A DNA stretch of 64,000 nucleotides, from NCBI GenBank assembly GCA_951406725.2, contig OX597823.1, positions 66,154,001-66,218,000 of the forward strand, given 5' to 3'. Under the pieces are notes generated by a model that saw only the letters and a program-made list of their open reading frames with translations, did no database searches and was not told the origin of the DNA. Positions 3,208 through 61,885 of this stretch are shown piece by piece (the first letter of the stretch is position 1; each line of letters starts with the position of its first letter). This DNA is from Octopus vulgaris (taxonomy: Eukaryota). Both the position numbers and the translations under genes were made by a program.

Positions 3208-4013
3208 ATGAGTTTGCTTGTTAGTTCAAAATCATATGTATTGCATGTTATAATTTGCGATTTTGAAGAGGTATCAAATATATCCGTTCATGGAACCTTG
3301 TCATATATTTTGCATAACTGACTTTATGGAACTAAAATGGAAGTATTTGGACTTGACGTAACCTACGAGGTATGATATTGTTAATTCGTTTTTTATACAT
3401 CGAATACCTTTGATGATTAACATGCCTTAAATAATGAACAAGACTAATAATTGTAGGTTATGAATTACTGACAATATATTAATATTCTACTACTCACAAC
3501 AACAAAGTTAGAATTCCTTATCAAATATATACACGATCAAAAATTAATCCTGAGATTTGCTGGGAGTTTTCTTGAATGTACTATTAAAATGACAAGTCCG
3601 CGTATATTCATCAGATAGAAAATGTTCCGAATCTGCAAATCAATGTTTTAGAACTTCAAAAACTTTTACTTCAACACATCCACGGAATTCAGAGTGGAAA
3701 TCTACTATCCAACAGCCTCTTATGCATTATTTGATTGCATTGTACTTATGCTTTTCTCTGTGTTTCTAACAAACTGTCTATACAATAAGAAATATTGAAT
3801 TTCTAAATCTCTCGTAGAGACATGTACGGTGGTAGGGCGATAGAATGGTTGTATACTGTCAATCTAACAAGAACGTGACAGTAGGAGGTACACCACCGCT
3901 GTATAGCCCTAGGAAGCATCGAACGCCTCCTGATAGCTTTGACACATTTTTTCCCTGTGTCCTTATATAGATATACGAAGGGGTGACAAACACCCCCGGC
4001 TGCCGGAACTGCA

Positions 4014-4059
4014 TCTAGAGACACCGTGTTTCAGGATCATTGTCCTTCATCGGCCTAGA
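4014..4059 (-). ncRNA. Minimal type I hammerhead (CCGAUGA core)
   Basis: tctagg-CCGATGA-agga(caatga)tcct-GAAA-cacggtg-TC-tctaga. Confidence 0.8.
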
Positions 4060-4187
4060 GTAGCAGACGAGAGATTTAGAAATTCAATATTTCTTATTTT
4101 GATAATCAGTGAATAAACTTCACAGAATATAGATATATAGAATTACGAAGTCGAGGCAAATATCACCAGCTGACCGGTATCTGCTAC

Positions 4188-4233
4188 TCTAGGACGATGA
4201 AGGACAATGATCCTGAAACACGGTGTCCCTAGA
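4188..4233 (+). ncRNA. Minimal type I hammerhead, core mutated (ACGAUGA)
   Basis: Stem I tctagg/cctaga, stem II agga/tcct, GAAA, quasi-palindromic stem III, GUC triplet; C3 changed to A. Confidence 0.7.
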
Positions 4234-4552
4234 TGCAGTTCCGGTAGCCGGGGGTGTTTGTCTCCCCTTCGTATATCTATATAAGGACACAGGGAAAAAA
4301 TGTGTCAAAGCTATCAGGAGGCGTTCGATGCTTCCTAGGGCTATACAGCGGTGGTGTACCCCCTGCTGTCACGTTCTTGTTAGATTGACAGTATACAACC
4401 ATTCTATCGCCCCACCACCGTACATGTCTCTACGAGAGATTTAGAAATTCAATATTTCTTATTTTGATAATCAGTGAATAAACTTCACTGAATATAGATA
4501 TATAGAATTACGAAGTCGAGGCAAATATCACCAGCTGACCGGTATCTGCTAC

Positions 4553-4598
4553 TCTAAGCCGATGAAGGACAATGATCCTGAAACACGGTGTCCCTAGA
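4553..4598 (+). ncRNA. Minimal type I hammerhead (CCGAUGA core)
   Basis: tctaag-CCGATGA-agga..tcct-GAAA-cacggtg-TC-cctaga; predicted cleavage after C4592. Confidence 0.8.
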
Positions 4599-5539
4599 TG
4601 CAGTTCCGGCAGCCGGGGGGTGTTTGTCTCCTCTTCGTATATCTATATAAGGATACAGGGAAAAAATGTGTCAAAGCTATCAGGAGGCGTTCGATGCTTC
4701 CTAGGGCTATACAGCGGTGCTGTACCCCCTACTGTCACGTTCTTGTTAGAATGACAGTATACAGCCATTCTGTCTATACAATTTTGTCTAACAATCATTT
4801 TTCATTCTCTCTTTTCACGTTGTGTCTCGTACTTTCTTTTCTCAACTTCTCCACTTTATTCCTTATGGGTAAGTCAAAACTTTCTAAGGGATTGATTTTC
4901 AGCAGAAAAACGTCATGTATATCAGAGAACGATTTTGAGCTTACTTTGTTTCGAACGTATATATACTAATTGCTGTTGCATTTCATCATTCGTGAACGAA
5001 TTGCTTATCGATGGGTGCCGATGTCTGTCGAGAATCAATACGTATTTCATTGTTTTCAACGGTGAACAAGGGTATCGTTTTGGTGATAACAATAAGCGCT
5101 TGCAATTAACGTTTTTGCTGAATTCGAAAAATTGACCGACTGTTCAATGCAATCAACTCGCCATTTAATGAAACTGAATCATTTGTTTGATAAAATAACA
5201 TCGGTTGTCAATTAAAAAAATTTCGATCAATTATAATTCTGTAGCTATTCCATCAATGGACAACTTGATAAATTTCGATCTACTGACCATTTTCTTGCGT
5301 TAGCTTATATATTTTAAGTTCTGTTGGCTGATATCTATATTACTTTTGAATATTAAACAATAGATTTAGCCTGTTATAACGCTAATATATTTTATCATAA
5401 AAGTTATTATAGGCTAAATCTATATACACATTTTATCATACAAGAATTCGATCAAATGTTCTGATTATATTTTATGAAATTCTATCACCTGACAGTTTAA
5501 AGGGGAGTTGGATCAACAATTCCGATAACTTCACCTACA

Positions 5540-9149: not shown

Positions 9150-9620
9150 GCGGGAGTGCTAGTGAAGGATTTACAACTAAAAGCCCTACCATGCATCTCC
9201 ACACACAGCCCTCTTAACAATGAAGCCTTCGATACCATCCTTCAAAACCTTCCCCTGCTAAAAAAAGGAAAAGAGAATGAACTTAATCCTCCAAACACAC
9301 ATCATCATAAAAAGCAAGAGACAACCCAAATGAAAAATCTCCTAACACAAGCCCGAATACGCTCAACAATAATACTGAAGCCATCAGTAAAAAAATGCGA
9401 AAAACCCAACTGTGGGATATGCGACAATTTAATTGAGTGATCAGAGTTCTCCTTCAAAGAGGGACAAAGTTTCACAGTGAAAAGTAGCTTCACATTTGCT
9501 GATCCTGGAGTTCACAGTGCACATAAAGGCAACATAGCGGAATAGGAGCAACCTTAGGTTCTCTGAGGCTATCCTCATACACCAACAGAAACCCAAAATC
9601 AATAATAGAAGGGAATTACA
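9150..9620 (+). mobile_element. Penelope-like retroelement fragment (RT-endonuclease linker with Cys motif)
   Basis: ISTHSPLNNEAF..KNLLTQARI..VKKCEKPNCGICDNL; homologous to YISTHKPHNNEAF at ~24880 minus. Confidence 0.75.
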
Positions 9621-10629: not shown

Positions 10630-12075
10630 ATGTAAGATGAATCGATAGCTTAAGCTGTTCTTTATTTAAAGAATTCAATAAATTCATACCACTGTTATTT
10701 AAATTATGTTAACTATATTTAAATTAACTTTAAACATCTTTGATATACTTATTAAAAGATATCGGCCATCTAGTCATGATATTTACGTAAATTTATATAT
10801 TTACTCTTATACTATGATTCTAAGCCTACTTTTCGGATAAGTATATTCCTTTCGTAATTGACACAAAGCAAATGTACTTATTTACCGTGTTATTATACAC
10901 CCTTACATAAAATGATGTACTTCATCAATTTCTTATTAAATTATATTAATGCCCCAGTATTAATATTATGTATTATTAAAAAAGATATGTTTTAAACCAA
11001 TATATTAATCCTTTCTTGAATATTATCATTTACAATATAAGGGGAGATAACATTTCATATTTATAGTGAAATAGAATATACTGTTAATTCCAGTTATCTT
11101 TAGTAGTTCAAGCCTCCTATTAGAGGTGTTTTTAAGGATAAATAACGCATCGTCTCTATAAAGGCCTAATCTCTGGGAATCCGTCGTATAAATAAGATAA
11201 TAGGTAAATACCCACTAAATCAGATTCCTGTGCTGAATCCGGGGGCCCCATTGTGATGTCGAAATCATTGGGGTGTCGTTCCTTACCCACAGCGTGTTAT
11301 CGAATTGTATTACAGATTTCCTAGTTTGTATGATTACCTTAAGTTCATCCATTGTCAATTTGGGTTGTCTTCTTAGCGAAAAATCAGAGCGCTATGTAGA
11401 ACTGTAGGATTAATTGATGAGTAATAGTTCTCTATGTCTATTTGTAGGAACTTATAACTAGTTTTATTCTGTATATTGGAGAACCAATTAAGGACGTTGT
11501 GTGTATTTGGCCATAATGCTAGACTTATCTTGTTTTTTTATAGTAGGAATATATTTAAGATTAATTTACTTAGGATTTATTGGGGCAGATTAGTCTAGTT
11601 TTCTTATCTGTTAAGAAATATTATTTGTGGTCTTTAATTGTTATGCGGGGTCTCGAAGGTGCGAAAAGTTCACATTTCTCATCTAAGTTGTAGTTGGTCA
11701 TAATCTTCTTGGCGGATAAGTTCAAAGATCTTAAAGTGTTATTAAACACTATTTTATATTTATTCGTTATTTCTTTATGCAACAGCCATTGGTATAAATT
11801 AACGTCTAAATTCTATGTTCCTGGTTTTGTCGGAATGTTCAATAATCTCCTTTTGCGATTTCGGTTTGATTAGTAGGTCCTTTAAGCTGCTTTGGTATGG
11901 ATTATTCCTTAGTGGATGATGTTTAAATTTTAGGTTCCTAATATTATCCCGTTGTTTGTTTTCAAAGGCGTCCAGGTACCTGTGAGGTAGGGGTGTTTTT
12001 CTAGTTTTGAAAATTCCTTCAGTAAACTCCTTGCAGGTGTTATTTGGTAGTCCCTGTTTGGTTATTTCCATCGTT
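10630..12075 (-). mobile_element. Decayed Penelope-like element RT region (YRDD type, probably Naiad clade)
   Basis: SDKTRNI, DITMGPPDSAQESDLVGIYLL (~11200-11260) and GLYRDDALFIL (~11140-11165); many stops and frameshifts. Confidence 0.8.
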
Positions 12076-13244
12076 GAATAAAGCTTTCCATCATGAACGG
12101 TGGATGAAGTCTGTAAATTTTGCAGTCACTCCTTTTAGATAAATATATTTTATATATATATATATATACATATATTATCTATCTATATATATATATCATC
12201 TATCTATCTATGCATATATATATATATGTTCTATTTATCTATACATATATATACACCTATATATGTTTATTAATACATGCATATGCATTCCCATACATAT
12301 ATATATATGTGTATGTGTGTGTATCTTTTATATATGCTCATACATATTCACATGTAGATCCATGTATGTATGTTCTTATTGACCAGCACTAAATTATTAA
12401 CATATAAACATACTAGTACATGGAGACATACATTCGATCTAACACTTAAAAATATGTATACATCATACTGTACTTGTTAGCATTTGTGCACCTATACGTA
12501 TCAAATACACACTCACAAACACACACATACATATATATATATATACATACATCTATCTTTCATAATAATACAAATCATAAATACATCAAACAATACAAAA
12601 AATGTATATCATTAAATTTGTACACTACATAGCCCAAAAGTCAGAATAAAATGGAGAGGATTTCTTCTTCAATTATATATATCAATATTAAATATTGTGA
12701 TCCTATAAGATGGCTTATTTCTTCTTTCATTAATTTTATCTCTATATAATGGCATATAATAATATTTTGCCCCCAAAATATTATATTCATAAACTTGTAA
12801 AATATAGTAAGACCATATAATTTTTTTAATATTATACTTTCTCTATAAAAGTACGTTTTATATATATCATATACACCCATATTCATACTTATTCACATAC
12901 ACAGAAAAATATACATATGTAAAAACTAATGTCCACACGCGCTTACACTTAGATCCATATGCATACTCATCGGTGTATATACCTGTATACATATTGTACA
13001 TATTCACATGTCCATACATAGGTATATACATATACTCTCTCATATTTAAGTTATTCATATATATACACACATATAGTTATAATCAATTTTAGTTGAGTAA
13101 AATTTCTATTACAATTTTCTAAATAGCCTTTATAGTGTTCATGTTAGTTATATCTTTTATAATGTCTAATTTCAGCTATTAATTTAATATATTCATGTAT
13201 ATCTATAGTTTTGAAACTGGATTTGAATATCTGACATCAAACCC

Positions 13245-13830
13245 CATTTCACGTAAGTTTAATAAGTAGGTACTTATTGAAGTGTTTACATGAAAATACA
13301 TCCTCATTTCTTATGTTGATAATGTTTCTCTTCCTTTCATTATCTCCTTCTAAGCATAATCTACAGCATTTATTATCAATTTTGTAACTTGGTGTGTGTG
13401 CTAAAATCTTCCATTTAATTGTGTAGTTAACTTTATTTCTTTTAAATTGCCATATTTTTCTTGATAACCCTGTACTATTCATTTTATTTTGGTCCCTGAA
13501 TGTCCATTCATGATTCGCTATTCTACATGTAACACAGTTCTCCGTTGACCCTGTATAGAAACATTCACTCATATCCTGTGTAGTTATTGTCTAACTTGCA
13601 TCTTTCAGGGTCTCAACAATTACAGCTTTTATTTTGCGTAGGTGTCCTTACAGTTATCCATAGTTCCCTTCCAATTTTCTTCTACTATTTTGTTATGAGT
13701 CTTTCTAGCCATTTGTGTTTAATATTTCCCTAGAATTTATCAAGTTTTCTGTTATTTATCGATGATATTATCCTAAATAAGTTTGGGAAAACAGACAATC
13801 CAAATCTTATATATTTCCCATTAACTATTT
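13245..13830 (-). mobile_element. Penelope-like GIY-YIG endonuclease fragment (Naiad-like)
   Basis: CNC..C upstream, then FYTGSTE..RIANH..TGLSRKIW..IKWKI..CRLCLE..INIRNE..CKH. Confidence 0.85.
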
Positions 13831-15177: not shown

Positions 15178-16100
15178 ACCTTAATATTTTGCTGCTTGTC
15201 CTGCGTATCTGTCCCTTTTGTGCATCAGGTATTTGGTCAATATTTCTTTATCCTGGATTGCAAGCGCATACTTTCCAAAGTGGGAGTTAGCAATCTGGTC
15301 ACTGGTCCATGACAGATTCGTTTGGTGATCAATATTACTATCACCACGGAGTTTTCTACTAACATATCCATGCATAGTCTTCTGCTGATATACGCTCCTA
15401 CATTCATCTGATGATACATTGCAGTAAGATTGTGCGACTACTTTCAGCATGTGTTTAAGGTCATCAGACAAGGAATGCTGCTCAAGAGCTGCTTTCCAAG
15501 TCTTATGATGTTACCATCCTCATGTATGCAAACTTGTTTAAGTGATGTACTTCGACACTTAATGGTTAAAAGATGTTGCCGAAGAGATATGATACGACAT
15601 TCAAAAGCAGTCTGGATTGATGCTAAGCCTCTGCCCCCGTTTTCGTTTTACCTACAGGCGGCCTGCGTCATTGTTGATGTGAAAATTATATGTGCTCGTT
15701 ATATCAATAGCTCGGATCTCATCAAACGGCCAATCAACTAGACTAGATTATCTTTATTTTCTTTATTCGACTGTAATATTCTTTAGTGACATGTATCTTG
15801 TTACTGGTGGCATCGTAGGATGCCACCTGTAACATTCGCCCCAAGGCACCTGCAACATTCTTCGTTCAATACAAGAGAAACAGTTAAGTCATTGATGGAG
15901 ATCTTGTTGGTCTGCTTTATGGTTTTCCTCTTTTCAAAATCATTTACCCAAATTCATCCTGATCAAACATCAACCCTATATCATTTGAAAACATTATAAC
16001 CAAGACAAGGCTCTTTTTCGAGTCATTCATATTCTTTGCATATTGTTTCAAGTCATACAGTATTCATCCACAATGAGTAGGTTTTGTATTTCTGATTATT
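15178..16100 (-). mobile_element. Decayed R4/Dong-type LINE fragment
   Basis: KTMHGY..ALAIQDKEILTKY parallels KPLYGKY..IIAAQDQGLPTRNY of the 52-kb element. Confidence 0.7.
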
Positions 16101-21447: not shown

Positions 21448-22206
21448 AGTATACTTATATATATTACATAGATCACAAAAAAATACAAAATATTATGAAG
21501 ACACTACATAATTAGTTGACTCGAGAGTTTGGCGACGAATCTCAGTGTTACGTTATAATTATAAATGTCATAATTTGCAAATGGAATATGAAATAGTTTT
21601 AGGTATACAACCAGTAAGCAGTAACACAGAGATGTTACAGTAAGTCCGGCTTAAATAGCGGTGCCAATGATTTAAACGGTTGGATGGTGAGAGGAGGTAG
21701 AACACGAAAGGCAGCAGCCAGACGAGGATATCAATGATATAGGAAGAGAGAGAGAGAGAGAGTAGTAGAATAGAAGAAATAGAAAGATGAGGAAGAGGGT
21801 AAAGTTAAAGTCTGTGAGGTGAAAACAAACATCAGTGTTAGTCAAGACAATCTATCAATGCAGCAAATGAATCAGTCAGGGATGGCAGCTGAAAAGACGG
21901 TGAGACGGGAAGAAATAAAGATTGAAAGAAACGAATCAGGATGGAGGTAGCGTTGGGATAAATTATGAGGAAATAAAGAGAATTTAGGAGCATAATTAAA
22001 TCTCAGAATGAGATTGAAACAGTAATCGCTCGATAATGTAAAGTATAGAAGCCATCTTATCATGGCTAACCACATTGGGGAGGGGGTGTTACTGTAGCTT
22101 TATAGCCCCACGAGATCTTCGTCTCTAGCTGGCTTTAGACACAATATCAGTGTCCTTTGAGTATTTGCAAAGGGAGGCCATCCCTTCCTCTCAAGCCTGA
22201 GTGATA

Positions 22207-22249
22207 CACTCGAACTAGTTTCGGGATTGTTGTCCCTCGTCAACGGGCG
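22207..22249 (-). ncRNA. Minimal type I hammerhead (UUGACGA core)
   Basis: cgcccg-TTGACGA-ggga(caacaa)tccc-GAAA-ctag-TT-cgagtg; palindromic AACTAGTT stem III. Confidence 0.72.
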
Positions 22250-22457
22250 GTAACCACCAGATCGCGATGAAAGTGAAGGCTGTCATGATAAGATGGCTTC
22301 TATACTTTACATTATCGAGCGATTACTGTTTCAATCTCATTCTGAGATTTAATCATGCTTACTGTTCGTTTTTCTACATCAGTGGCAGGCGTCACTAGAA
22401 AAACTTATATATATATTTGCAAAGCAGCCTTCACTTTCATCGCGACCTGGTGGTTAC

Positions 22458-22500
22458 CGCCCGTTGACGAGAGACAACAATCCCGAAACTAGTTCGAGCG
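22458..22500 (+). ncRNA. Minimal type I hammerhead (UUGACGA core)
   Basis: cgcccg-TTGACGA-gaga..tccc-GAAACTAGTT-cgagcg. Confidence 0.68.
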
Positions 22501-22778
22501 TATCACTCAGGCTTGCGAGGAAGGGATGGCCTCCCTTTGCAAATACTCCAAGGACACTGATATTGCGTCTAAAGCCAGCTAGAGACGAAGATCTCTTGGG
22601 GCTATAAAGCTACAGTAACATCCCCTCCCCAATGTGGTTAGCCATGATAAGATGGCTTCTATACTTTACATTAAAGAGAATTTAGTATAAGGAGAAAGGA
22701 GAAAGAAAATGACACTAGAGAATAGTATATATATACAGATACGCATATGTACAGTTAGATAAAACAAAGGGAACAACT

Positions 22779-24369: not shown

Positions 24370-25520
24370 TATAAAATGTCTCAGTATTGCGAGTTTAATG
24401 AATTTAGCCTCGGTCTATATCTCCATATGAAATGCATCGATGTGCTGGCTGAGAGGTATTTTCCTGTATTCCGGAATCATAATTTGAGATTTGTGCACCG
24501 ACGTCCTCTGGCGTAGGCTGTTTTTTTTGTGTGTCCAATACATTGCCGTTTTGCATCCCGAGCATGTAATTAAGTAAGTCAAATTCTCCGATGCACATGT
24601 AAAATTAGTTTTTTATGGTGAAATTATGGCCTTGCTCTAATCGGTATTCTGATACTTCTAGTATGTTGGTACAGAATAAGTTAGGGTCTCCCGCACTTTT
24701 TTCATTGTCGACTGTGTAGTTACTGCTGAGTATAATTTGGCCTGGGATAAAATCTTTTTCACTGATTTTGGCTTCTCTTACTTTTGATGATTGTGTGTGT
24801 TTTGAGGGTTTGATTCATCTTTGGGTCTCTCTTGGGTAGAGCTCTGCTGTGTAGCATAGTTTTGAAGGCCTCATTGTTATGTGGCTTGTGTGTGGAAATG
24901 TAAGATAGGGTTTTCAATTTTTCTTCCTTCTTTGGTCTTCGTAGTCTAAGTTCTTGAGTATTTACTGTACGTACTCATTGGATCGTATTGTCGATCAAGG
25001 GTTGTGTGTATTTCTTATTGATGAGTGTTGTTTTCAATTCCTCGCGTCGAGTCTAACGGGTGTTTGCGTCTGATACTATTGTGCATATTGTTTTGGCTAA
25101 ACAAAATGGGATGTTCATCCTGGTGCGTCCCGGGTGGCAAGAATCAAATGGCAGGTACTGTTTCGAGTCCATGGTTTGTAAAAGATATCTGTCTCTATTT
25201 CGTTCCCGACTTTTTTAAGGATATCTAAAATCGGTAGTTGTTCCTGGTTGTACTCTATCGTAAATTGGAAGTTTTTATTTATTCCATTTAGAAGTGTTTG
25301 GAATTCGTTACGTTTTTCTATACTTTCATTCCAAAGGATGAAGCAGTCATCGAGATATCTTTTCCAGTTGACTTGAATGTAGGTTGAAAAGGAGTTTCCA
25401 TATTTCTCGAGTGTTTTCTGGTATTGTTTAATTTTGAGATAGCCCATTACCAGTTTCGCAAAATAAGGTGCAGCCTGTGTTTCCATTGCTGTCCCTGATA
25501 TTTTGTCGGAAGTAGTCATT
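24370..25520 (-). mobile_element. 5'-truncated Penelope-like retroelement (RT C-terminal part plus GIY-YIG)
   Basis: SGTAMETQAAPYFAKLVMGYL, WKRYLDDCFILW, FTIEY..LPILDI, TDIFYKP; decayed endonuclease downstream. Confidence 0.9.
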
Positions 25521-25609
25521 GTTAAATATAAAATAATTGTTTTCTAGGATAAACCTTAGTCCTTCTAGTATGAGGTATTTTTTTTAATGCGAGTGGGTGT
25601 TCATAGGTG

Positions 25610-26097
25610 TATAAATAAAGACAAGGGTTATAGGGGTAGAAGAACCCGATTTCTATTAAAATCCCAGGGGGAACAAGTTCACCACGACAACTACTATTAT
25701 TATCCCCGCTGCTAGTTATTCGACTGCTACAGCCACTCCCATAGAAAACAAGTCTTGACCACACTATTTAATTTACCAAAACAAACAGATAGTAGTAATT
25801 TGCGGTCACAGACAGTTCAACGTGTCAAGCCACGAAAATTAACGGAAATTAATACGTGCACTTGCAGGAAAATGCAAAGTAAGCTATGAATGTTAATTGT
25901 AATTTAACTGTATTAAAAGCTCCTTTTTCTCTCTACATATTCCATTTTAGTACAAATTTTTTGATTAGGTTTTTCAAAAACCGAAACATGTAAAACAAAG
26001 CGAAAGCATTCTACTTTTAATGTATTTATTTGAAAGAAAATTAAAATGTACCCAATTTTAAGAAAGTATCAGTTTCGTTCACCTTTTTCATGAATAT
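25610..26097 (+). repeat. Inverted Penelope pseudo-LTR with relic hammerhead
   Basis: TTGATTA-ggttt(ttcaa)aaacc-GAAACATGTA at ~25961-25992; inverted match to 23275-23935. Confidence 0.78.
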
Positions 26098-34068: not shown

Positions 34069-34201
34069 ATGTTTACATATTCATCTGGGCGAATTTGCGT
34101 TTTTGTTGAATTTTCTGCTGCTTTAAATAAAGCATATTACTCTACCACTGGTATTTGAGTACTCTTTTTTCCACCTTCTTTCGCATTTATGTGTTTACTC
34201 C

Positions 34202-34254
<53 letters not shown>

Positions 34255-37261: not shown

Positions 37262-37292
37262 TATCACAAATATAAAATTTCTAAATAACTCA

Positions 37293-37517
37293 TAGAGATA
37301 TGTACGGTGGTGGGGCGATAGAGTGGTTGTATACTGTCAACTTAACGTGACAGTAAGGGGGGGGATTACACCACCGCTGTTTATCCCTAGGAAGCATCGA
37401 CACTTCCTGTCGGCCTTGAAATGTGTCAAGGCCGACAGGAAGCGTCGATGCTTCCTAGGGATAAACAGCGGTGATATAATCCCCGTCTTACTGTCACGTT
37501 AAGTTGATAGTATACAA

Positions 37518-37525
<8 letters not shown>
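37293..37525. repeat. Fold-back of a family A relative (family C), HHR segment absent
   Basis: ~100-bp arms around 37420; homologous to 4300-4430. Confidence 0.88.
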
Positions 37526-45194: not shown

Positions 45195-45609
45195 ACTGGA
45201 AGCACAAGTCCTCAAATTTGGGAAAATGGATTAAGCAGGTTACATCGACCCCAGTGCATAGCGGGTACTTATTTAATCGACTCCCAAAGATGGAAAGGCA
45301 GAGTGGATCTCGGTGGAATTTGAACTCAGAACGTAACGGCAGACGAAATAACGCGAAGCATTTCGCCCGGCATGCTAACGTTTCTTTATTGCCCACAAAG
45401 AACTAAACATAGAGGGGACAAACAAGGAAAGACAAACGTATTAAGTCGATTACATCAACCCCAGTGCGTAAATGGTACTTAATCTATCGACCCTGAAATG
45501 ATGAAAGGCAAAGTCGACCTCGGCGGAATTTGAACTCAGAACGTAATGGTAGACGAAATACGGCTACGCATTTCGCCCAGCGTGCTAACGTTTCTGCCAG
45601 CTCGCCGCC
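45195..45609 (-). mobile_element. Two tandem SINE family 1 copies
   Basis: Two successive copies joined at ~45383. Confidence 0.88.
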
Positions 45610-46867
45610 TTGTCATAATGATTACGAGTTATTTACGTTACATATTACGCACCAATGCAAAGTAGATCCAGTTAGACTATACATATTACTGACAACTATT
45701 TTTTTCTGTTGTTGAATTGTATATCATACTCTCGATAAGGGAAACGAATTTCGTCTTTCAGAAGAAAAATCAGATATTTGCCTCATTGTTGCGACTGTTT
45801 TCATGTGCAATCAGCATAACAATTGCTGTATTCTGATGAAAAATATTCCTTACTCTGTGATTGTACAAAAAGCATCAGATATAACGAATATTTTACAAAA
45901 CATCCATTCTTGTAACGATGGATGATTTAGCAAATCTGTATTGAAAAGCAATTGGTGCAATAATGTATTTTTTCACTTTGGCATGTTTCCCGCTTCGGAA
46001 TCAGAATAATCTATTCAAATTCTGAATCATTCTATCGGATATATACATCACATTCAGAATAACGTTTACAGAGTATGCACCCGACTTCATTCTTAAACGG
46101 GTTATGCAGTCAAGAAGGTAAGATGCTGAAGATAATGTGCGTTGCGAGAGATATTTAGATTATATTGCAATGAGAAACAACATGATAATAATTCCTTCTT
46201 TGCCTGAGTAAACGAAAATTTTTGCTTTGCATAAAAGCCTGAAAAACACTAAATCAAATAAGTGTTTATACAAATGGTGAAACAACCAAATAACAATATG
46301 TAGGGTTTAATAGCCAATATCCTTTTGTAACAATAAAATAAAAAATTTTAAAAATATCTGCACAAATTGTAAATATTTCCAGATTGTTTCTCGATAACGA
46401 CAAATATTCAAATTTATCAGAAAACAATTTATGAATATTGCATACATTTCACAAATTCTCATGTCTTGACGACAACATTGGCTTTCAGTGAACTGTGTCG
46501 AAATCCTGGAAAAAATGGAAATGCATTTCATTATGCACATTTTCTGTTTCGTGTGGCTGATCACTTATAACGTTATTCAAAGAAACAATTGCACACATAC
46601 ACGATAGCAAGTCGCTGAATCCTTTCAGTGTTACTGCTGAATTGACAAGCAGGTCGTAAGGAAGATAAATTTCTTAAAATTATGTTTACACCATTAAAGA
46701 CGCAGAATGCAATCACACATAGGGCAAAATTGAAACATAAATCATTCAACATTTTGATCTATCTCATTGTTATATGCACAGGTAACCCCAGTCGGTTTTA
46801 ACCATTATTTCGAATCTTACTTAGTGAACTGTGAACTCTCTGTAACTTCACGTGCATTTAGTACAAA

Positions 46868-48244: not shown

Positions 48245-48920
48245 TTTCCACTATAGGCATTAGACCAGAAACTTTGAAATAGGTTGCTAATCAATTTCAT
48301 CGACATCAGTGCTGACCTGGTATGTATTTAATCGACCCCGATAAGGTTAAAAGCAAACTCAATCACCACAAAATTTGAAATCAGTATGTAAAGACGTAAG
48401 AAATGACGCTAAGCATTTTATCCGGTGCGGTAACGATTACGACAGCTCACCTCCTTAAATGCCGGTTTCAAATTTTGGCCAAGCCTAGCAAATTGGGAGA
48501 CGCAGTAAGTTGATTACATCGAGGCCAACGTCCACCGGATACATGTTTTTTTATTGACTCCGAAAAAATGAAAGCAATGATCTATTGTAATTCGACCTCG
48601 AAGGAATTTGAACACAGACCCTAAGGACGGACGAAATGCAGCTAAGTATTTTGTCCGGTGAGGTAATGATTCTGCTAGTTCACCGCCTTAAATACTGTTC
48701 TTAACATTAAAGATGTATTTAAGGCAGCGAACTGGAAGAATATTTAGTGCGTGGGGAAAATTCCTAGCAGCATTTTGCCCGTCTATACGATCTGAATTCA
48801 AATTCCTCCGGGGTTGAGTTGCCTTTCATGCTTTCGGTATCGGTAAATTAATTACAGGTCCAGTCGATGTAATAGACTTATCCACTCACTCGAAATTGCT
48901 GCTCTTGTGTCAAAATTTTA
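48245..48920. mobile_element. Cluster of three SINE family 1 copies (-,-,+)
   Basis: Copies at ~48245-48455, 48465-48688 and 48722-48920. Confidence 0.8.
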
Positions 48921-49916
48921 AAAGAATATTAAAGGCGTATATTACTGCTTTCTTTGGCGGAAATGCTGCCAGACATGATTTCATAGCAGACAAGCTGCAA
49001 TACTCGTTATGGTTTTGGAACATTACTTTGTAATCTGCCTTGAAACGATGATCAAGGTTTTTGAGAAACTCTACCATATTAATGAAAGATAAGTTAATGA
49101 AATTGTAATATTGCGTTAAGCTTTGACCATACAAAACGATATTTTATTTCTAAGAATATAGCTGTACATTTACCACTCTTTTCTTGGTTCATGATCCTGA
49201 TACCTTCCCAACTGAACAGCAGCCAGTTGTCATCATTCCGTAAATCAATAAACATCGCATATCATAAGATACGTATTAACAAAGTATCTGTAAGTTACAT
49301 CAATTTTATATTTCAGGTGTAACGCTTAACGTATAAGAATACTGACAGTAGAAATGTGAGTGATGTGTATCTTGTCATAAGCATTGCATTAAGTCATTAC
49401 CGAGGGCTGTAAATATCACCAATTCAGTCCACCTATGAAACAATTAGCAATTGCATAAAGTGACCGATAAAGGTAATATGAATGTGCGTTTCATCGATCA
49501 TGGTCTTGCCTTAATATCAATTAAGAGAGAAGATAGGTTACACTTCTGTAAACTGTTTCACAGCATACATATATAAATGCCAGCTCACAATATTGCATGC
49601 GCATGTTCTATGTGGGGATGTATGTCATTTCGATGCAGAAACCTTGAAATCTGCATTACTTCCTCTATTGCATAGTAATTGATGAAGTTAGCTATTCGGA
49701 GTAGAAGCCCTTCCAAACCAACAATTGCTTTTCACAGCTGCATGTCGCCCCCGTGTTTTCATTAAAATGAGATTAGATTTCAACTCGGAACATAGTCCGA
49801 TACGGTAACAATCAATCACCTACAGTAAAAATTTGAAATGAAGAGAAGTGGAGCAGTCTCACTCGACAATCGAGCCGACGCTCTACAAATTTGAAGGTGG
49901 TATGTATGTATGTATG

Positions 49917-50125
49917 CCGGAGTAAGCACATAAATGTGAAACAAGGTGGAAAAAAGAGTACTCAAATACCAGAGGTAGAGTAATATGCTTTATTTAAAAG
50001 CAGCAGAAATATAACAAAAGCTGTTACTCAGAGTCTCACGTTCCCGTTAACAAAACTGTCCGACGAACGGGAACGTGAAACTCTGAGTAACAGATGTTGT
50101 TATATTTCTGCTGCAGTTAGATAAA

Positions 50126-51924: not shown

Positions 51925-54900
51925 AATACTTTATATTTGCTAAGTTTTTGGTAGGTCTTGACAGATACGTTTATATCGATTGGGACAGTCATATCAATGA
52001 GGAGGCATGTTCTTTGTCTGAAGTCTTTCAATATGATGTCTGGCCTATTTGCATCTATCCTTCTGTCAATTTGAATGGTGAAGTTCCAGAGGAGTGAGAT
52101 GTGGTCATTTTCAAGCACTGGAGGTGGATTGTGTTCCCACCAGTTTTTTTTCATGGGGCAAATTCAGGTTTTTGCAAATTACCCAGTGAATATATTGTGC
52201 AGCTCTATCATGCCTGTTGAGGTACTCTGTAGTCGCTAGAAGACTGCATTTGGAGACAACATGATCAATGGTTTCATTTTGTTGTCGGCATACACGACAT
52301 GTTGGGCTACTACCGTTCTTTAATATGTTGGCCTGGTAGTTTCTCGTTGGTAGGCCTTGATCTTGAGCTGCTATGATAAACTCCTCTGTTTCAGATTTTA
52401 AGCCAGATGCCATTAGCCATTGATGGGTCAGGGCTTTGTCAATATCTGCATTATTCGCTCTCTTTGGGTATTTGCCATAGAGAGGTTTTCTTGCCATTTA
52501 TTATTCAGAATATCTAAGGCCGCAGTTTTGGCACGGGTTTTCATGCGCCTAGCTTTTTCTGTGCTTGTTTCTTGTATGTCTATCTCTAATTCCGAAATTG
52601 GTTGTATTCGGAATTCACTTAGATATTCCTTTGCCTGTTTTGTTACTGAGTATGATGCTTTCTTGTTTTCATGTTTTGAGACAAGTTTTAACATCCAGTC
52701 CTCAGACTTATTCAGGTAGGTGTCTAGGCCACTTGTAGCAATTTTCATTGTCATTGCCAGTTGCAAAAGACCACGGCCTCCTCTTTTCTTGGCAGATAAA
52801 GTCGTTCTGTATCTGCCTTAGGGTGGTGCATTCTATGCATTGTCAACAGTTTTCTTATTTTTCTGTCGAGCTGACATATTTCAGTAATTGACCAGTTAAC
52901 AGTATTGAAACTGTAAGTCACGACTGGTATGGCTAATGCATTGATCGCTTCGATCCTGTTTCTTGCATTCAGCTCTGTCTTGAGTATTGCGTTCACTCTT
53001 CGATAGCATTCTCTCCTGATCATTTCCATCATCTCTGAATGCCTTATTCCGTTCCCTTCAATTACCCCTAGGTACTTGTAGCTCTCCGCTGGGTCTAGTT
53101 CTTTTATGACATTCTGCTGGTCAAGGTTAACGTTACATGTTTCTGTCATTTTTCCTTTGATAAAGGTAGCTTTTGCACATTTATCGAGGCCGAATTGCAT
53201 TCTGATGTCGTCACTGAATTGTTTGACTATCGCTAGTAAGCCCTTGAGTTGTTGGTCATTTTTTACAAAGAGCTTTAAATCATTCATGTAAATGAGATGA
53301 TTTATATTTTTATCAAACATTTTATACCCGTACTGCGCGTCATTGAGCAGTTTTGAGTGAGGTATTAAGGCAAAACAAAAGAGGAGTGGTGACAGTGAGT
53401 CACCCTGGAAAATGCCACACGAAATTTTTACATCACCAGCATTTAGGATTCATTGTCACTGTTCAGAGTTAGTGTGGTTCTCCATGATCTCATACTTACA
53501 GTCAAAAAGTTTCGCAGAGTAGGTACTATCTTATACATTTCTAGGCATTTCCTAATCCAGCTATGTGGTAGGCTATCAAAAGCCTTTTTATAGTCTATCC
53601 AGGCTATTGATAAGTTTATGTGTCGTTTGTGACAATCTTCTAAGATCATCTTATTGATGAGTAGTTGATCTTTACAGCCGTAGAATCCACGTTTACATCC
53701 TTTCTGTTCATTAGGGAATATGCTGCTGTCTGTTAAAAACTATAAGTATATTCCGTCAGGACAGATTTTAGCGTTTTATACATAGTTGTTAAGCAGGCTA
53801 TGGGTCTATAGTTTTTTGGTTCATTTGTTTCTTTACTTTTTGGAAGCAGGAATGTTAACCCATTAACTAGCCAAGGAGGCATCCTACTAGGGTGTTGCAA
53901 AACATCATTGTACAGTTCTGTTAGCAGTTCATGGCTCTCTGGGAAGGCATTCAGCCAGAAGTTAGGAATTTTATCCTTTCCTGGAGACTTCCATTTGCTT
54001 GACCTCCTGAGAGCAGATCTTATATCTTCTACCTTGACACCCTCCCACTTTTGCTCTTCTAAGGGGTCCAGTTCTGTCGATATTCTGTCAATCCAGGGGG
54101 CCTTTTCGTTGTGTGTTTTTTCTTCAGCACAAATTTTATTCCAAAATCCCTGCACTTCTTCTTTTGATGGTACAGACCTTGCAGTAAACGCTGTTTTTCC
54201 TATCTTCCTGTAAAAATTCTTGGGGTTATTTTTAAACATGTTGTTGTCCTTGAAAAATCTAACACGCTTTTCATACCTCGCTATGCGGGCAGCTTTGGCA
54301 GATACCTTTTGTTTGATGGTTTCTATGGTTGCATCAATATCAAGTATAGTTTTCATATTGTATTTTTTCAGCATTTTTTGGGTTTTTGTAGGTTTGGTAG
54401 TCTTCTGAGCCTTAAGGTTTTTCAAATATTCAATGTCAGATCTAAATAGTTTAATTTGTTGTTGCAGACGCTCTTGCCAAGAAGGCTTTTTGTGGGAATG
54501 TTGCCGTTTTCTAATCTTTACACCACATAGTATCGTTGAGATTTTCGCGGATGCATAGTATAGGTGGTTGAGAGTTGTGATATCAACATCATTAGCTGAA
54601 ATTATATCCCTAAGTGCAAGCCGGATTTTACCAATTATTTTCATGTTTTGGTTAGAGTTGCGGATTTTAGGGAGTGTATCACGTTCATCCATGCTGGTTT
54701 CTTTAATTTTCAACCATTCAATCATGATTTGATTTTTAGCTCATGTAGTTCTGTTGGGTCAATATTTGTGTGACTTTCTTTATCTATTTGATGTTCATCT
54801 GTCTTCGTGTTTATGATTGGTTCAGGGAGTATTTCACTTTGCCTATCACTTATACTAACTCTTTCAATCCTTACTTCGTTTTTATCAGTCCTGGGCTGGT

Positions 54901-55480
54901 CTATAATTATTTCCTCTGTATGATCTTCTCTAGCTGCAGCTTCGTTCATTTTATCCGATATTGCTTGTCTAACTTGATCAATCTCTACTTCAGTCAGTAA
55001 TTTTTTTTATAATGTTTCTTCTGACGTTGACAAGTTTGTTACTGTCTATGTAGGGTCTTACTTCAGGGTGTTTCTGTCTCCAGTTTAAGTATGTTTGTAC
55101 AGTGTTAGATTTATCTGTGAGGAAATATATGGCATGGTAGAAGGCCTCAAGAACTTCTTTATTATCTTCCCTAGACCATTTTTCCTTCTTTTTCTTTTGA
55201 TTATTTGGTGACGAGCATGGATGGCCATCTGTTGGAATATTCCGGTTGTGGAGTACGTCCAGCTCCTGTGTGTTGGGAATATTTGATCCAGTAGCTGATT
55301 TTTCAATCAGAATTTGGTTCAATTTTCGGGTACGTGGTCTTTTGTAATCCGCGCAACGACCAATGCGGTTTATTGTTTGATTTGTTGACATTGAAGCATG
55401 ACGAGCTGCCATTCTTATATTAGGAGATGGATATGTCAGTTTACGGTTCTCTACACGTAAGCATTGCTCGTAGCGCATCT
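51925..55480 (-). mobile_element. Near full-length R4/Dong-clade non-LTR retrotransposon (RT plus restriction-like endonuclease), pseudogenised
   Basis: Ordered ORF pieces: [91 protein letters not shown]. Confidence 0.95.
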
Positions 55481-56149
55481 TCTTAAGGCTAGTAGATCTG
55501 TATTCGTCTGTATTTTTTTTTGTTGATAGTTTTATCTCCGAACATTTTTTTCCCTTCTCTTCCTTTTTTCCTCTCTCTTTCTCTCTATCTCCTTCTTCCC
55601 ATTTATCCTTCCTTCATTTCCCTTCCTCTTTTAAACTTATAAAAGGCTCACTCTGCCTGTATTAGCTCGGAATAATGAGAATAGAATACGGAGAAAGAAA
55701 AGAAAAAAGGGATCTGTCAGTTATTATTGTTATTACTATCACCTTCATCACCATCACCATCATCATCATCATCAACATCACCATCACCATCATCATCATC
55801 AGTGACATTGTTTTATGTGTAGTCACAGCCATCATCAACACCACTACTGCCATTGTGTGGGGGATTAATTGGTTAAAGAGGTCATGTTCTATGGGTCTAT
55901 AAATAGATTCAGCAGATGGTGGAGACAAAGGATGTTAATAGTCAGTAAAAGGTCAAACCTGTTTACATTTTTTTTCCTTTCTCTTTTCTTCCTTTCCACA
56001 TACATATTTATATGTATACTCACACACACATATTATCTGATGTTTACGTCGATGATTTTTTTTTTAATTACTGAATTCAATGTTATGTATATATTTTTTA
56101 AATTTCTGAAATCAGTTGTATGTATATATTAGCAGGTGCTTAATTCCAT

Positions 56150-58900
<2,751 letters not shown>

Positions 58901-59097: not shown

Positions 59098-59468
59098 CGG
59101 CCAGCTGGTAGTAACCTTAGCACGCCCGCCAAAATGCATAATGGCCTTTCGTACGTCTTTACGGTCTGAGTAAAAATTTAACCGAGTCGACTTTGCCGTT
59201 CATCCTCTCGATGTAATCGACTTACCCGGCGTCCTGGTGTCAAAATCTCAAACCAACATTAAGAGAGTATAAGACGGCAAGATGTGAAAATAGTACGTCG
59301 GGCCATTTCATGCGTGTTTACGCTTTGAGTTCAAATTCCCCCGAGGCTGACTCTACCTTTCATATGTCGGAGTAGATAAAATATGTACCAGTGGAACACT
59401 GGGGTCGATGTAATCGACTCACCCATTCGCTCGAACTTGCTGGTTTTGTGTTAAAATTTGAAATCAAT
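59098..59468 (+). mobile_element. Two tandem diverged SINE family 1 copies
   Basis: gtcgactttgcc, gatgtaatcgact, gagttcaaattccc blocks. Confidence 0.72.
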
Positions 59469-59850
59469 ATCAAGACAGCATAAAAACCAGACACATAAAA
59501 TACCATAAATACTGATGTTTCCCAGTCTATTGTCTTTTACAGCATCTAATTTATGATGCTTCTATATATCAAGTCTCAATATGTGCAGACCTAGAGCACT
59601 CAGAAAATAACACGGTATCTTAAAGTAGAAAGGACAAACTGTGAGAGTGATATAGTTTCATAAATTTTACGACATTATAGGCACAGGTTTCTTAATGCAT
59701 GAACGTTATTTTAATAATCAGATTGTTCTGAAGTGGCAGGTCTTCTGGCGAGAACAGTTATTTAATGTTTCTCATTCACATTGTAGATTTTCTGAAGGTA
59801 TAAATGCAAAAAATATAAATATAGAAATATATTCTCGTAAATTATATATG

Positions 59851-59956
<106 letters not shown>

Positions 59957-60647
59957 CGTGTGTGTGTATGTGTGTGTGTGTGTGAGCGCGTGTATGTGTG
60001 TGTGTGTATGTATATAGGTGAATATTGTGATGTCTGAAAATCTACTAAAATTATAGTGTATACCACTAGAGTTCAGAAACATAGGATTGTCAACTCACCA
60101 GTAAAGTAAGTAAAACATTCTGATATCATAACCGTTTCAAAATATTACCGTAACGATAATGATTTATAGGTAGTCTCACTGGGGAGAATTATAGAAACAA
60201 GTCATGAGATCTCAATGCAAATGGAAAATAATCCAATTAATCATTCTTTTTCTGCCCACAAAAATTTTATATTTAAAAGAATACTTTTTTACATTTGTCT
60301 ATAGATAGAATATCGTTTACCTCTACTCATCACAAATATTCATTCTTGACTCTACTACTAGACGAAATGTAATCGAAATGTTATAGAAGATGATATCTCA
60401 CAGCTCTACTTGATATGGTCTATATTATTGACTTTGGAAGCTTGAGTTTCTATGCAGCGAAATTTTAACTCAGAATGTAGTATATTGGGCCTCAAAGCTG
60501 CGCGGCATTTTGTCTAGCTCACACGCCTGCCTTTTTACCAGGATCAAACTAGAGGTGAGATACAGAACACAGTAAATTTTACCAACATATAAAGATTCCT
60601 GGCATTTTTGACACTAAATAAAATACTACTTAGTATTCATTAAAATA

Positions 60648-61493
60648 CGAGGTCTTATCAATAAGTATCCGGACTGCTGCTATAGGAAGGAAGTTAAAAC
60701 AAGCAGAGTAAAGCCGTTTGACAAAAATTGACCTTGATCCCTCTTATTTATGTGTATTAAGTTTTAATGTTCTGGCTCACTACCACTGTTTACAGCATTG
60801 CTTGGAAGGAGAGTGTGTAGCGTGTGATCGTCGCACTGACCATGACACAGAAAATTGTCATGGTGATACCTGCTCAGTATCATATACAAAGTTGCAGAAA
60901 GTGTATGAAGAGGAGTATATGAGCTCACACAAGTGTACGAGTGTTTCAGACATTTTTAAGATGGCCGAAAAATTGTCGATATTGACGAACGTTCTGGGAT
61001 ATCTACAACCAGCAGAACTGAGAAAAACATCGCAGATATGCGTGCAACTGAGAGGGGAAATCGTCGAATCACCAACTATGAGTTATCAGAGGATGTGCAG
61101 ATTAATTACGATTCAGTTCAGTCCAATATCACGTGTCTGCCAAATTTGTACCAAAGCCGCTTTGAGTTGTCCAAGAAGACACTCGGGTTTCAGGTGCAAA
61201 AGACCTCTTCGATCGTGTCGAGAACCAAATTAAAGCTTTGCGTAGGCATCTGAGCAGGTATCACCAAGCTTTTGGCAACATTTGATGCAAATTCTCCGCT
61301 CAACTTTCTCTGCCATGATCAATGCGACGATCATACGCTACACGCCTTCCTTCTAAACACTGTTGTAAACATCAGAAGTGAGCTAGAACGTTAAAACGTA
61401 CTGTTCATGCACAGCAATGTTAAAGCAGCTTTACTCTGAGTGCTTTAGCTTCGTTACTATGCAGCAGTCCGAGTACTTATTGATCAGACCCCG
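60648..61493 (+). mobile_element. Mariner derivative with ~230-bp inverted ends
   Basis: TA|cgaggtcttatcaataagta..tacttattgatcagaccccg|TA; HTH remnant FKDGRKIVDIDERSG. Confidence 0.88.
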
Positions 61494-61885
61494 TATTACT
61501 AACTACTCAGCGCAATGCCATTCAGAATCATCTTTACCATCATTACAGTTACGCTATATGAGGAATTTTTTTTTCGGAAATGGTAGTTTTCCTTATATAC
61601 CACCAATAGAATAGATATGAATTCTTCTAATTTTCGTAGTTTTGAAGTATAAAAATATATACAACTTACTCCGAACGTTGTAAATGGAATCTTGTAACTT
61701 GTTGCATGAATCTTCTTCTGAAAATATTTTGCATCAGTTAACACTCGCTTAAAACAACGGAAGACGTTCTTCTTAGCAGATACGGACTGATAAATCCTCA
61801 TTACTATATGGTTAAAAAGTATATTTTTAAACTCTACTTCATCCACTTGTTTATCCTCCATAAATCAGATGAATCCTGTAGAACG

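What the first reader, a model, noticed from the sequence alone, without database searches (positions are those of the whole stretch)
21974..22685. Second independent ~360-nt hammerhead insertion with the same architecture
A 14-bp perfect TSD flanks an inverted partial copy and a circularly permuted 359-nt monomer that overruns its own start by ~28 nt. A terminally redundant, permuted copy is what reverse transcription around a circular or multimeric RNA would give. The same layout in two divergent families implies a shared integration mechanism.
Basis: partly seen in the sequence, partly recalled or inferred. Interest (0 to 1): 0.75.

Follow-up and report, generated by a model that had tools for sequence, protein, structure and literature searches.

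The report
Small ribozyme retroelement with Penelope-type ends
This is a short non-coding jumping element carrying a self-cleaving hammerhead ribozyme (a retrozyme), probably in an octopus genome, and its fixed outer ends look like those left by Penelope-like retrotransposons, which points to them as the enzymes that copied it.

Summary
The layout is real: a perfect 14-bp target-site duplication (TSD) encloses a 294-nt inverted arm joined head-to-head to a 388-nt forward arm (a 359-nt unit plus 29 nt). Each arm carries a type I hammerhead.

Two claims need correction. The family is not independent: it is collinear and about 50% identical to the element at 3774-4782. The breakpoints are not dispersed: in all 3 related insertions in the window, one outer 3' end stops at the same column (about +177 from the cleavage site) and the other stops 47-57 nt further on. 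Only the inner 5' ends vary, so the 29-nt overrun is just where 5' truncation fell.

Two fixed starts, a one-sided tail, head-to-head inversion and a TSD are the published signature of Penelope-like elements (PLEs). Best reading: a non-autonomous non-LTR retrozyme, copied by a PLE enzyme from both strands of a staggered break (0.8). The template was longer than one unit; circle versus uncleaved tandem transcript is unresolved.

Retrozymes, and PLEs as their proposed helpers, are in print. I found no description of this end signature in retrozymes. New member of a known kind; interest 0.42.

The parts
21974..21987 (+). Left copy of the 14-bp target-site duplication
   Evidence: 14 of 14 identical to 22672-22685, not extendable; only 2 matches in the window
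21988..21988 (.). One untemplated base between the TSD and the inverted arm
21989..22282 (-). Inverted arm, 294 nt: unit positions 142-359 + 1-76. Runs from -70 to +224 relative to the cleavage site and carries the long 3' end
   Evidence: 9 of 294 differences from the forward arm
21989..22035 (-). 47-nt tail: sequence beyond the short 3' end, present at this outer end only
   Evidence: difference between the two outer ends, +177 and +224; 57 nt in element A
22191..22261 (-). Type I hammerhead, inverted copy; predicted cleavage between 22213 and 22212; stem II fully paired
   Evidence: Rfam HH9 30.7 bits, below gathering; descriptor scan; pair counts
22283..22283 (.). One untemplated base at the head-to-head (5'-to-5') junction; no microhomology
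22284..22671 (+). Forward arm, 388 nt: one permuted 359-nt unit plus 29 nt. Starts at +149 of the previous unit and ends at the fixed short 3' end, +177, with 2 nt of microhomology into the TSD
22406..22436 (+). TATA-like run (22406-22415) and initiator-like motif (22431-22436) upstream of the ribozyme; putative internal Pol II promoter (inferred)
   Evidence: same arrangement described for a rotifer PLE pseudo-LTR (PMC3846280); TATA-like run also in family A
22414..22544 (+). Predicted long stem whose tip holds the hammerhead
   Evidence: MFE of the unit, z -2.83; similar rod in family A, 13 of 53 consensus pairs changed on both sides
22446..22516 (+). Type I hammerhead, forward copy; predicted cleavage after 22494. 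U at core position 3 opposite G8, a C-A mismatch in stem I, and a palindromic one-pair stem III
   Evidence: Rfam HH9 27.2 bits
22643..22671 (+). 29-nt terminal redundancy (repeat of 22284-22312)
22672..22685 (+). Right copy of the 14-bp target-site duplication
3774..4782 (+). Element A, homologous family with a 365-nt unit: 13-bp TSD (3774-3786 / 4770-4782), inverted arm 3787-4067 (-48 to +233), forward arm 4067-4769 (1.93 units, ends at +176/177), three hammerheads
37269..37522 (.). Element C, a diverged A-like copy without the ribozyme part: two short head-to-head arms with the same short and long outer ends, a near-palindromic junction, and no TSD seen (right flank is a CT microsatellite)

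Best explanation
The element is a non-autonomous, non-coding non-LTR retrozyme inserted by the reverse transcriptase/GIY-YIG endonuclease of a Penelope-like element. Its unit is about 360 nt: TATA/initiator, canonical type I hammerhead in a long stem, then a structured 3' region. Steps: (1) A tandem or partial-tandem copy is transcribed into RNA longer than one unit; part of it may be cleaved and circularised (inferred). (2) A PLE protein binds the structured region downstream of the ribozyme and nicks AT-rich DNA on both strands 13-14 nt apart (stagger inferred from the TSDs, which are shown). (3) Each nick primes cDNA at one of two fixed internal sites, about +177 and about +224 to +233 from the cleavage site (fixed ends shown in 3 of 3 insertions; priming inferred from PAc biochemistry). 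(4) The two cDNAs run for variable lengths, through the uncleaved ribozyme site and into the preceding unit, and are joined 5'-to-5' with 0-1 nt of overlap or filler (junctions shown; joining inferred). This gives TSD, long-ended inverted arm, short-ended forward arm, TSD. The template was either a circle (about 0.4) or an uncleaved tandem transcript (about 0.5); template jumping between linear monomers takes the rest.
For: Short ends: in B, A and C homology to the unit stops exactly 9 nt after a shared 5-nt motif, with 2 nt of microhomology in each. Long ends: 8 (B), about 14 (C) and 17-20 (A) nt after a shared 8-nt anchor. For random ends on a 360-nt circle, P = 1.5e-4 and 5.6e-3, product 8e-7 (windows chosen after seeing the data). 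3 of 3 insertions have one short and one long outer end, joined head-to-head. The six 5' ends vary: +149 and -70 in B, +205 and -48 in A, roughly +70 and +90 in C. Published PLE anatomy matches: direct pLTRs plus an adjacent inverted pLTR, a 9-bp TSD, a 31-bp tail on one end, TATA plus initiator (PMC3846280); inverted 5'-truncated copy and 30-40-bp tail at one end (PMC8557442). The purified anole PLE protein cuts and extends both strands, is predicted to be a dimer, starts at two internal sites downstream of the hammerhead whose interval equals the tail, prefers AT-rich DNA and does not need ribozyme cleavage (PMC11167929). The empty sites here are 67% and 72% AT, close to the window average, so this point is weak. 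The RNA is under structural selection: 51 of 55 hammerhead cells pair and 5 of 11 pairs changed on both sides between the families, against 14-47% paired in slid controls; circular MFE z is -3.8 (B) and -6.3 (A), 60 shuffles each. There is no coding capacity (longest ATG-started frame 45 codons). Remnants of RT and GIY-YIG-like genes lie in the window, and O. vulgaris has 31 recently active PLE families (PMC13282606).
Against: n is only 3, and A and C belong to one subfamily. The long end of C is ambiguous by about 8 nt, and C shows no TSD. The tails (47-57 nt) are longer than the published 30-40 nt. No sequence link was found between the units and the RT/EN remnants in the window (only 12-23-nt AT-rich matches), so the partner element is unidentified; calling those remnants 'Penelope-like' rests on recalled motif order, not on a database label. 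The B hammerheads score below Rfam's cut-off, have no unusual folding stability in isolation (z -0.13 and +0.15) and deviate in the core. The covariation comes from two lineages only, and the structure was drawn from these same sequences. No expression, cleavage or circular-RNA data exist here.
Confidence: 0.8

Rival explanations
1. Strong form of the first reader's idea: reverse transcription starts anywhere on a circular RNA and rolls slightly more than once, so permutation and terminal redundancy are direct products of the circle.
For: Both arms cross the cleavage site and the unit junction. A's forward arm holds 1.93 units. The three copies in A carry 3, 7 and 3 private differences, which fits identical copies at insertion (chi-square p 0.29). 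Mussel retrozymes of 350-390 nt accumulate mainly as circles (PMC7229834).
Against: All 3 short ends and all 3 long ends are fixed. A has no short overrun. The same tandem/inverted layout occurs in multi-kilobase PLEs, including Naiads that lack hammerheads (PMC8557442), so it does not need a circle.
Confidence: 0.06
2. Same element and PLE enzyme, but the inversion arises by self-priming (fold-back) on one cDNA or on an antisense template, with the two outer ends set by endonuclease resolution rather than by two priming events.
For: Proposed for PLE head-to-head junctions with palindromes (PMC3846280). Element C has a near-perfect palindrome at its junction with about 6 nt of spacer. Family A has a TATA-like run in the 3' arm of the rod that could fire antisense.
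Against: In B and A the two 5' ends are far apart on the unit (-70 and +149; -48 and +205) with 0-1 nt of microhomology and no junction palindrome. In vitro, PAc extends both strands from sense RNA.
Confidence: 0.1
3. The insert is only the 5'-truncated end (pseudo-LTR) of an autonomous PLE, not a separate non-autonomous element.
For: PLE insertions are usually 5'-truncated and have inverted pLTRs (PMC8969392; PMC8557442). Promoter, hammerhead and start sites lie in the same order as in a pLTR.
Against: Upstream of the TATA run the arm continues into the previous unit's tail, about 46 nt away, not into endonuclease coding sequence. A has two in-register 365-nt units. There is no ORF, and the translated units do not match the fetched RT proteins. 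The hammerhead is the canonical retrozyme type, not the minimal type usual in animal PLEs (PMC4209133).
Confidence: 0.04
4. A SINE-like RNA mobilised by a LINE (RTE, CR1 or L1), with the inversion made by ordinary twin priming (model recalled from memory, not read here).
For: A TSD of 13-14 bp, a head-to-head inversion and 2-3 nt of microhomology are also typical of LINE insertions (recalled). A LINE-type RT remnant lies in the window (RVT_1, E 2.7e-10).
Against: No poly(A) or simple-repeat tail at either end. Twin priming on one linear RNA gives non-overlapping arms with a variable internal priming point, whereas here both arms copy the same 247 nt (-70 to +177) and the second start is fixed. 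No Pol III A or B box matched in B.
Confidence: 0.03
5. Assembly artefact, or a local DNA-level inverted duplication.
For: Fold-back chimeras do occur in assemblies (recalled), and the window is repeat-rich.
Against: The arms differ at 9 of 294 positions, a unique perfect TSD brackets them, and three loci share homologous ends.
Confidence: 0.01

Closest known systems
Metazoan non-LTR retrozymes (Cervera and de la Pena 2020, PMC7229834; mussel 350-390-bp units)
   Same: Non-coding unit of 359-365 nt, GC below 50%, canonical type I hammerhead, tandem or partial-tandem units, TSD longer than 4 bp, stable predicted circular fold.
   Different: Circular RNA and self-cleavage not shown here. The insertions are head-to-head with two fixed ends and a tail, which the parts of the retrozyme papers I read do not describe. 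The B core is deviant.
Penelope-like elements, EN+ (Penelope/Poseidon, Neptune, Hydra clades; PMC3846280, PMC8557442, PMC11167929, PMC2377424)
   Same: Partial tandem, adjacent inverted 5'-truncated copy, head-to-head junction, tail on one end, TSD, and the order TATA/initiator, hammerhead, two start sites.
   Different: No RT-EN ORF. The tail is 47-57 nt against 30-40. The start sites are further from the cleavage site (+177 and +224, against about +85 to +92 for the mapped PAc site, my arithmetic). The hammerhead is canonical rather than minimal.
Vertebrate retrozymes as non-autonomous PLE derivatives (bioRxiv 10.64898/2026.07.22.740005)
   Same: Same conclusion about who mobilises retrozymes.
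   Different: That study argues from co-occurrence and pLTR homology in Xenopus; its main text has no 'tail' and uses 'inverted' only in a reference. Here the evidence is insertion anatomy in an invertebrate, and no homologous pLTR was found.
Axolotl HHR_Amex1 and newt satellite 2 hammerheads (PMC7229834; PMC4209133)
   Same: Stem III reduced to one pair capped by a palindromic 4-nt loop, as in B; predicted to cleave as a dimer.
   Different: No sequence comparison was made. B also has U3 opposite G8, whereas the natural covariant reported is U3-A8 (PMC3088659).
Non-autonomous Chlamys PLEs such as MRC1 (PMC8557442, PMC9977147)
   Same: Non-coding elements moved in trans by PLEs, with pLTRs and head-to-tail copies.
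   Different: Algal, generally without hammerheads, and sharing 3' ends with known autonomous partners.

Membership tests
Non-LTR retrozyme | Unit of about 150-450 bp, GC below 50%, non-coding | tested here: met
   359 nt (B) and 365 nt (A); segment GC 0.31-0.51; longest ATG-started frame 45 codons
Non-LTR retrozyme | Type I hammerhead in each unit | tested here: met
   HH9 matches at E 1e-5 and 2e-4, below gathering; 5 of 6 descriptor hits in the window lie in A and B; compensatory pairs. C lacks that part of the unit
Non-LTR retrozyme | Tandem head-to-tail units (two or more consecutive units with a hammerhead) | tested here: inconclusive
   A has two consecutive ribozyme-bearing units; B has 1.08 units, so only one hammerhead per strand
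Non-LTR retrozyme | No LTR/PBS/PPT; TSD longer than 4 bp | tested here: met
   TSDs of 14 and 13 bp and no LTR pair. PBS and PPT were not searched specifically
Non-LTR retrozyme | Highly self-paired predicted circle | tested here: met
   circular MFE z -3.8 and -6.3; 63-65% of bases paired
Non-LTR retrozyme | Self-cleavage and accumulation as circular RNA | not testable with these tools
   no transcript or bench data; the B core variant may be weak
PLE-mobilised insertion | Fixed 3' ends with variable 5' truncation | tested here: met
   3 of 3 short ends and 3 of 3 long ends fixed; six 5' ends vary
PLE-mobilised insertion | Tail on one end only | tested here: met
   47 nt (B), 57 nt (A), about 54 nt (C); longer than the published 30-40 nt
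PLE-mobilised insertion | Adjacent inverted 5'-truncated copy, head-to-head | tested here: met
   3 of 3
PLE-mobilised insertion | Homology to the pLTR of an autonomous partner | tested here: inconclusive
   none with the three remnant regions tested in the window; the rest of the genome was not available
Autonomous PLE | RT plus GIY-YIG ORF | tested here: not met
   no ORF in either unit; no tblastn match below E 1
LINE-dependent SINE | Pol III A/B boxes and a poly(A) or simple-repeat 3' tail | tested here: not met
   no A or B box pattern in B, one isolated B-box-like match in A, no tail at the ends
Plant LTR retrozyme | Type III hammerhead in LTRs, 4-bp TSD | tested here: not met
   type I topology and 13-14-bp TSDs

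The most novel reading that the evidence does not exclude
A covalently closed ribozyme RNA is the direct template for target-primed integration. A Penelope RT-endonuclease dimer cuts both DNA strands and starts two cDNAs at two fixed internal sites on the circle. Internal initiation would remove the need for a free RNA 3' end and let the enzyme roll past one unit. This would explain how animal retrozyme circles re-enter the genome, and it would be a case of circular-RNA retrotransposition with a defined cis signal.
Probability: 0.3. Interest if true: 0.72.

Novelty: new member of a known kind. Interest (0 to 1): 0.42.

Why it matters
Which enzyme mobilises animal retrozymes has been inferred from co-occurrence and pLTR homology. 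A 2020 review states that the repeats show no conserved motif pointing to the helper (PMC7761336). Here the insertion ends themselves carry the PLE two-start-site signature at homologous positions in units only about 50% identical. That defines a small candidate cis element (roughly +90 to +235 from the cleavage site) and makes the question directly testable with the published in vitro PLE assay, including whether a circular RNA can serve as template. It also suggests a ribozyme-bearing repeat family in a probable octopus genome that is not labelled as such: the main text of a 2026 O. vulgaris repeat annotation has no occurrence of 'ribozyme' or 'retrozyme' (its supplement was not read). As a single decayed insertion it is ordinary repeat DNA.

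Tried and rejected
Rfam at gathering level: 0 hits. In the whole-window E-value scan, 1 of 148 rows was a hammerhead; the MIR8742 hit is only the inversion hairpin.

A strict CUGANGA...GAAA regular expression gave 9 hits, none in A or B, because their cores are variants.

Other family members: nhmmer gave 13 hits, 8 strong ones all inside A, B and C, and 5 weak ones at E 0.21 or above. There was no match in the phage collection and no exact match of a 26-nt ribozyme stretch in bacterial/archaeal genomes. No eukaryotic genome or transcript collection was available, and the viral and metagenome contig collections stayed unchecked, so copy number and expression are unknown.

Circle versus tandem transcript from arm divergence: not decisive. 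Private differences in A were 3, 7 and 3 (raw 4, 7, 3 of 226 columns; one end-gap column dropped). One part of the unit diverged less (2 of 189 against 18 of 443, Fisher p 0.049), but it is also much poorer in GC and CpG, and in A it compares different units, so I draw nothing from it.

The idea that the inverted arms begin at the transcription start: the 5' ends lie 8-14 nt upstream (B) and about 15 nt downstream (A) of the predicted start; C does not fit. Kept as a lead only.

A shared local fold at the start sites: the consensus was weak, with 4 of 34 pairs changed on both sides and a misaligned stretch; B alone gave z -1.2. No AC-rich stem-loop common to both families was shown.

A helper element in the window: no link found. 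A search for longer homologues of the 13252-13590 frame found none among 10 candidates. Pfam named only 2 of 11 window frames at E below 1e-3, both from the LINE-type element.

Supplements: that of PMC7229834 could not be read, those of the bioRxiv preprint are closed, and that of PMC13282606 was listed but not read. Any of them may show cephalopod retrozymes or inverted insertions.

Full report
CONTEXT. The window is AT-rich (27-40% GC per 2 kb) and full of microsatellites. A degraded reverse-transcriptase frame at 25118-25543(-) has 8 hits among 10 candidates. The closest named ones are Octopus vulgaris (72%) and O. bimaculoides (76-77%), then Mytilus (57-58%). The host is therefore probably an octopus; this is an inference.

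OBSERVATION (element B). The TSD (21974-21987 / 22672-22685) is perfect, not extendable and unique in the window. Inside it lie one filler base, a 294-nt inverted arm (21989-22282), one filler base (22283) and a 388-nt forward arm (22284-22671). The forward arm is a 359-nt unit plus its first 29 nt. The inverted arm is unit 142-359 + 1-76 and differs from the forward arm at 9 of 294 sites. In ribozyme sense both 3' ends face outward and the 5' ends meet (head-to-head).

THE RIBOZYME. Rfam HH9 matches both arms at 30.7 and 27.2 bits, below the cut-off of 52; nothing passes the cut-off in the window. A relaxed descriptor finds 6 sites in the window: 2 in B, 3 in element A and 1 unrelated. Across the 5 A/B copies, 51 of 55 cells pair and 5 of 11 pairs changed on both sides, against 14-47% paired in slid controls; only two lineages contribute. 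The topology is canonical type I, with a bulged stem I and a six-base loop 2. Both B arms share U3 opposite G8, a C-A mismatch in stem I and a palindromic one-pair stem III, so the RNA that was copied already had them. Such a stem III is described as dimer-dependent (PMC4209133, passages; PMC7229834), and the natural covariant reported is U3-A8 (PMC3088659, section 8). B's ribozyme was probably weak. The isolated B hammerheads are no more stable than shuffles, but the whole unit folds well, linear (z -2.8) or circular (z -3.8; A -6.3), with the ribozyme at the tip of a long stem. A TATA run and an initiator-like motif precede it. There is no coding frame.

NOT INDEPENDENT. The other element (A, 3774-4782) has a 13-bp TSD, a 281-nt inverted arm and a 703-nt forward arm of 365-nt units. 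Its unit is collinear with B's: 167 of 337 columns identical, score 103 against a maximum of 59 in 300 shuffles. A third, A-like insertion (C, 37269-37522) is also head-to-head. nhmmer finds no further members in the window.

THE DECISIVE MAPPING. Counting from the cleavage site, the forward arms end at +177 (B) and +176/177 (A). In B, A and C, homology stops exactly 9 nt after the same 5-nt motif, and the last 2 nt are shared with the target. The inverted arms end at +224 (B) and +233 (A), which is 8 and 17-20 nt after a shared anchor, and about 14 nt after it in C (ambiguous). Random ends would coincide this closely with P of about 1.5e-4 and 5.6e-3 (windows chosen post hoc, n = 3). The 5' ends vary: +149 and -70, +205 and -48, about +70 and +90. 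Each insertion thus has one short and one long outer end, 47-57 nt apart. The 29-nt overrun is simply 177 - 149 + 1, and A has none.

MECHANISM. This is the published anatomy of Penelope-like insertions. A rotifer copy has direct pLTRs, an adjacent inverted pLTR, a 9-bp TSD, a 31-bp tail at one end and TATA plus initiator (PMC3846280, passages and Discussion). Inverted 5'-truncated copies and one-sided 30-40-bp tails are general, also in Naiads without hammerheads (PMC8557442, passages and section 11; also passages of PMC2377424, and PMC8969392). The purified anole element cuts and extends both DNA strands, is modelled as a dimer, starts at two internal RNA sites downstream of the hammerhead whose interval is the tail, and uses mostly uncleaved RNA (PMC11167929, parts 1-2 of 4). 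I therefore propose a staggered 13-14-nt cut, each nick priming at one of the two fixed sites, variable-length cDNAs, and 5'-to-5' joining. Shown: TSDs, fixed ends, tail, junctions, passage through the cleavage site. Inferred: transcription, the enzyme's identity, priming from both nicks.

CIRCLE OR MULTIMER. The template exceeded one unit. For a circle: related-size mussel retrozymes accumulate mainly as circles (PMC7229834, parts 2-4 of 6); A's three copies have 3, 7 and 3 private differences (p 0.29 for equality), some of which break conserved pairs, as expected from decay of initially identical copies; a dimer-dependent ribozyme would leave a monomeric circle intact; and internal initiation needs no RNA end. 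For an uncleaved tandem transcript: B's weak ribozyme, the in vitro preference for unprocessed RNA, and the same layout in long PLEs. These data do not separate the two.

HELPER. Remnants in the window include an RT-containing element at about 24380-25634(-) with a related piece at 9195-9315, and a GIY-YIG-like frame at 13252-13590(-) (Atlas score 0.95). Calling them Penelope-like rests on recalled domain order. Neither unit matches them. O. vulgaris is reported to have 31 recently active PLE families (PMC13282606, passages and section 7).

WHAT IS KNOWN. Non-LTR retrozymes, the circle-template model and PLEs as candidate helpers are in print (PMC7229834; PMC7761336, passages). A 2026 preprint calls animal retrozymes non-autonomous PLE sequences, on co-occurrence and pLTR homology (10.64898/2026.07.22.740005, parts 1-3 of 5 and a term search; supplements closed). 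Non-autonomous PLEs are also known in Chlamydomonas (PMC9977147, passages). In nine literature searches I saw no report of octopus retrozymes or of the two-start-site tail in retrozyme insertions. The library lacks most subscription papers, and I could not see the relevant supplements, so this is a limited negative. L1 twin priming is recalled, not read.

VERDICT. Real feature; observation mostly right; interpretation partly right. It is a new member of a known kind: a non-LTR retrozyme that works like a non-autonomous PLE (0.8). Membership of the retrozymes is met on sequence criteria but untested for cleavage and circular RNA. It is not an autonomous PLE. The added value is anatomical evidence for PLE mobilisation and a small testable cis region. 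Interest 0.42; the circular-template version has probability about 0.3 and would merit 0.72.

Noticed in passing
window 49905-50117 and 34101-34215: An unrelated small head-to-head insertion with a type I hammerhead-like motif at about 50055-50095(+). Its longer arm ends at the same point as a solo copy at 34101-34215, both running into TA-rich microsatellites: another PLE-style fixed end.
   Followed up: partly
window 37269-37522: Element C: a diverged family-A copy lacking the ribozyme part, with a near-palindromic head-to-head junction, inserted beside a CT microsatellite; fits a fold-back junction.
   Followed up: yes
window 24380-25634 (-) and 9195-9315 (+): Degraded, frameshifted RT-linker-endonuclease remnants, 62-77% identical to Octopus proteins in the longer stretches; Penelope-like by recalled motif order.
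   Followed up: partly
window 13252-13590 (-) and 11802-12125 (-): A GIY-YIG-like C-terminal frame (Atlas 0.95), possibly Hydra-clade by eye, and a second unclassified frame nearby.
   Followed up: partly
window 52114-55613 (-): A broken LINE-type element (RVT_1 E 2.7e-10, zf-RVT E 3.9e-5), with a related piece at 15184-15510 by eye.
   Followed up: no
window 60644-61497: An element with about 210-nt imperfect terminal inverted repeats (72%), mariner-like by eye.
   Followed up: no
window ~6900, 17300, 30100, 43950, 45200-45600, 48300-48900, 56600-56800, 59100-59470: An abundant 150-230-nt interspersed repeat family, SINE-like.
   Followed up: no
window 4278-4286, 4134-4142 and 22406-22415: In family A the two arms of the stem that holds the ribozyme each contain a TATA-like run, so the unit could be transcribed in both directions; B keeps only the sense one.
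   Followed up: partly
window 22282 and 4067: The 5' ends of the inverted arms of B and A lie within about 15 nt of the predicted transcription start, which might hint at a linear primary transcript; C does not fit.
   Followed up: partly
window 45642-46698 and 56910-57976: A 1.1-kb inverted pair at 69% identity, an older repeat.
   Followed up: no
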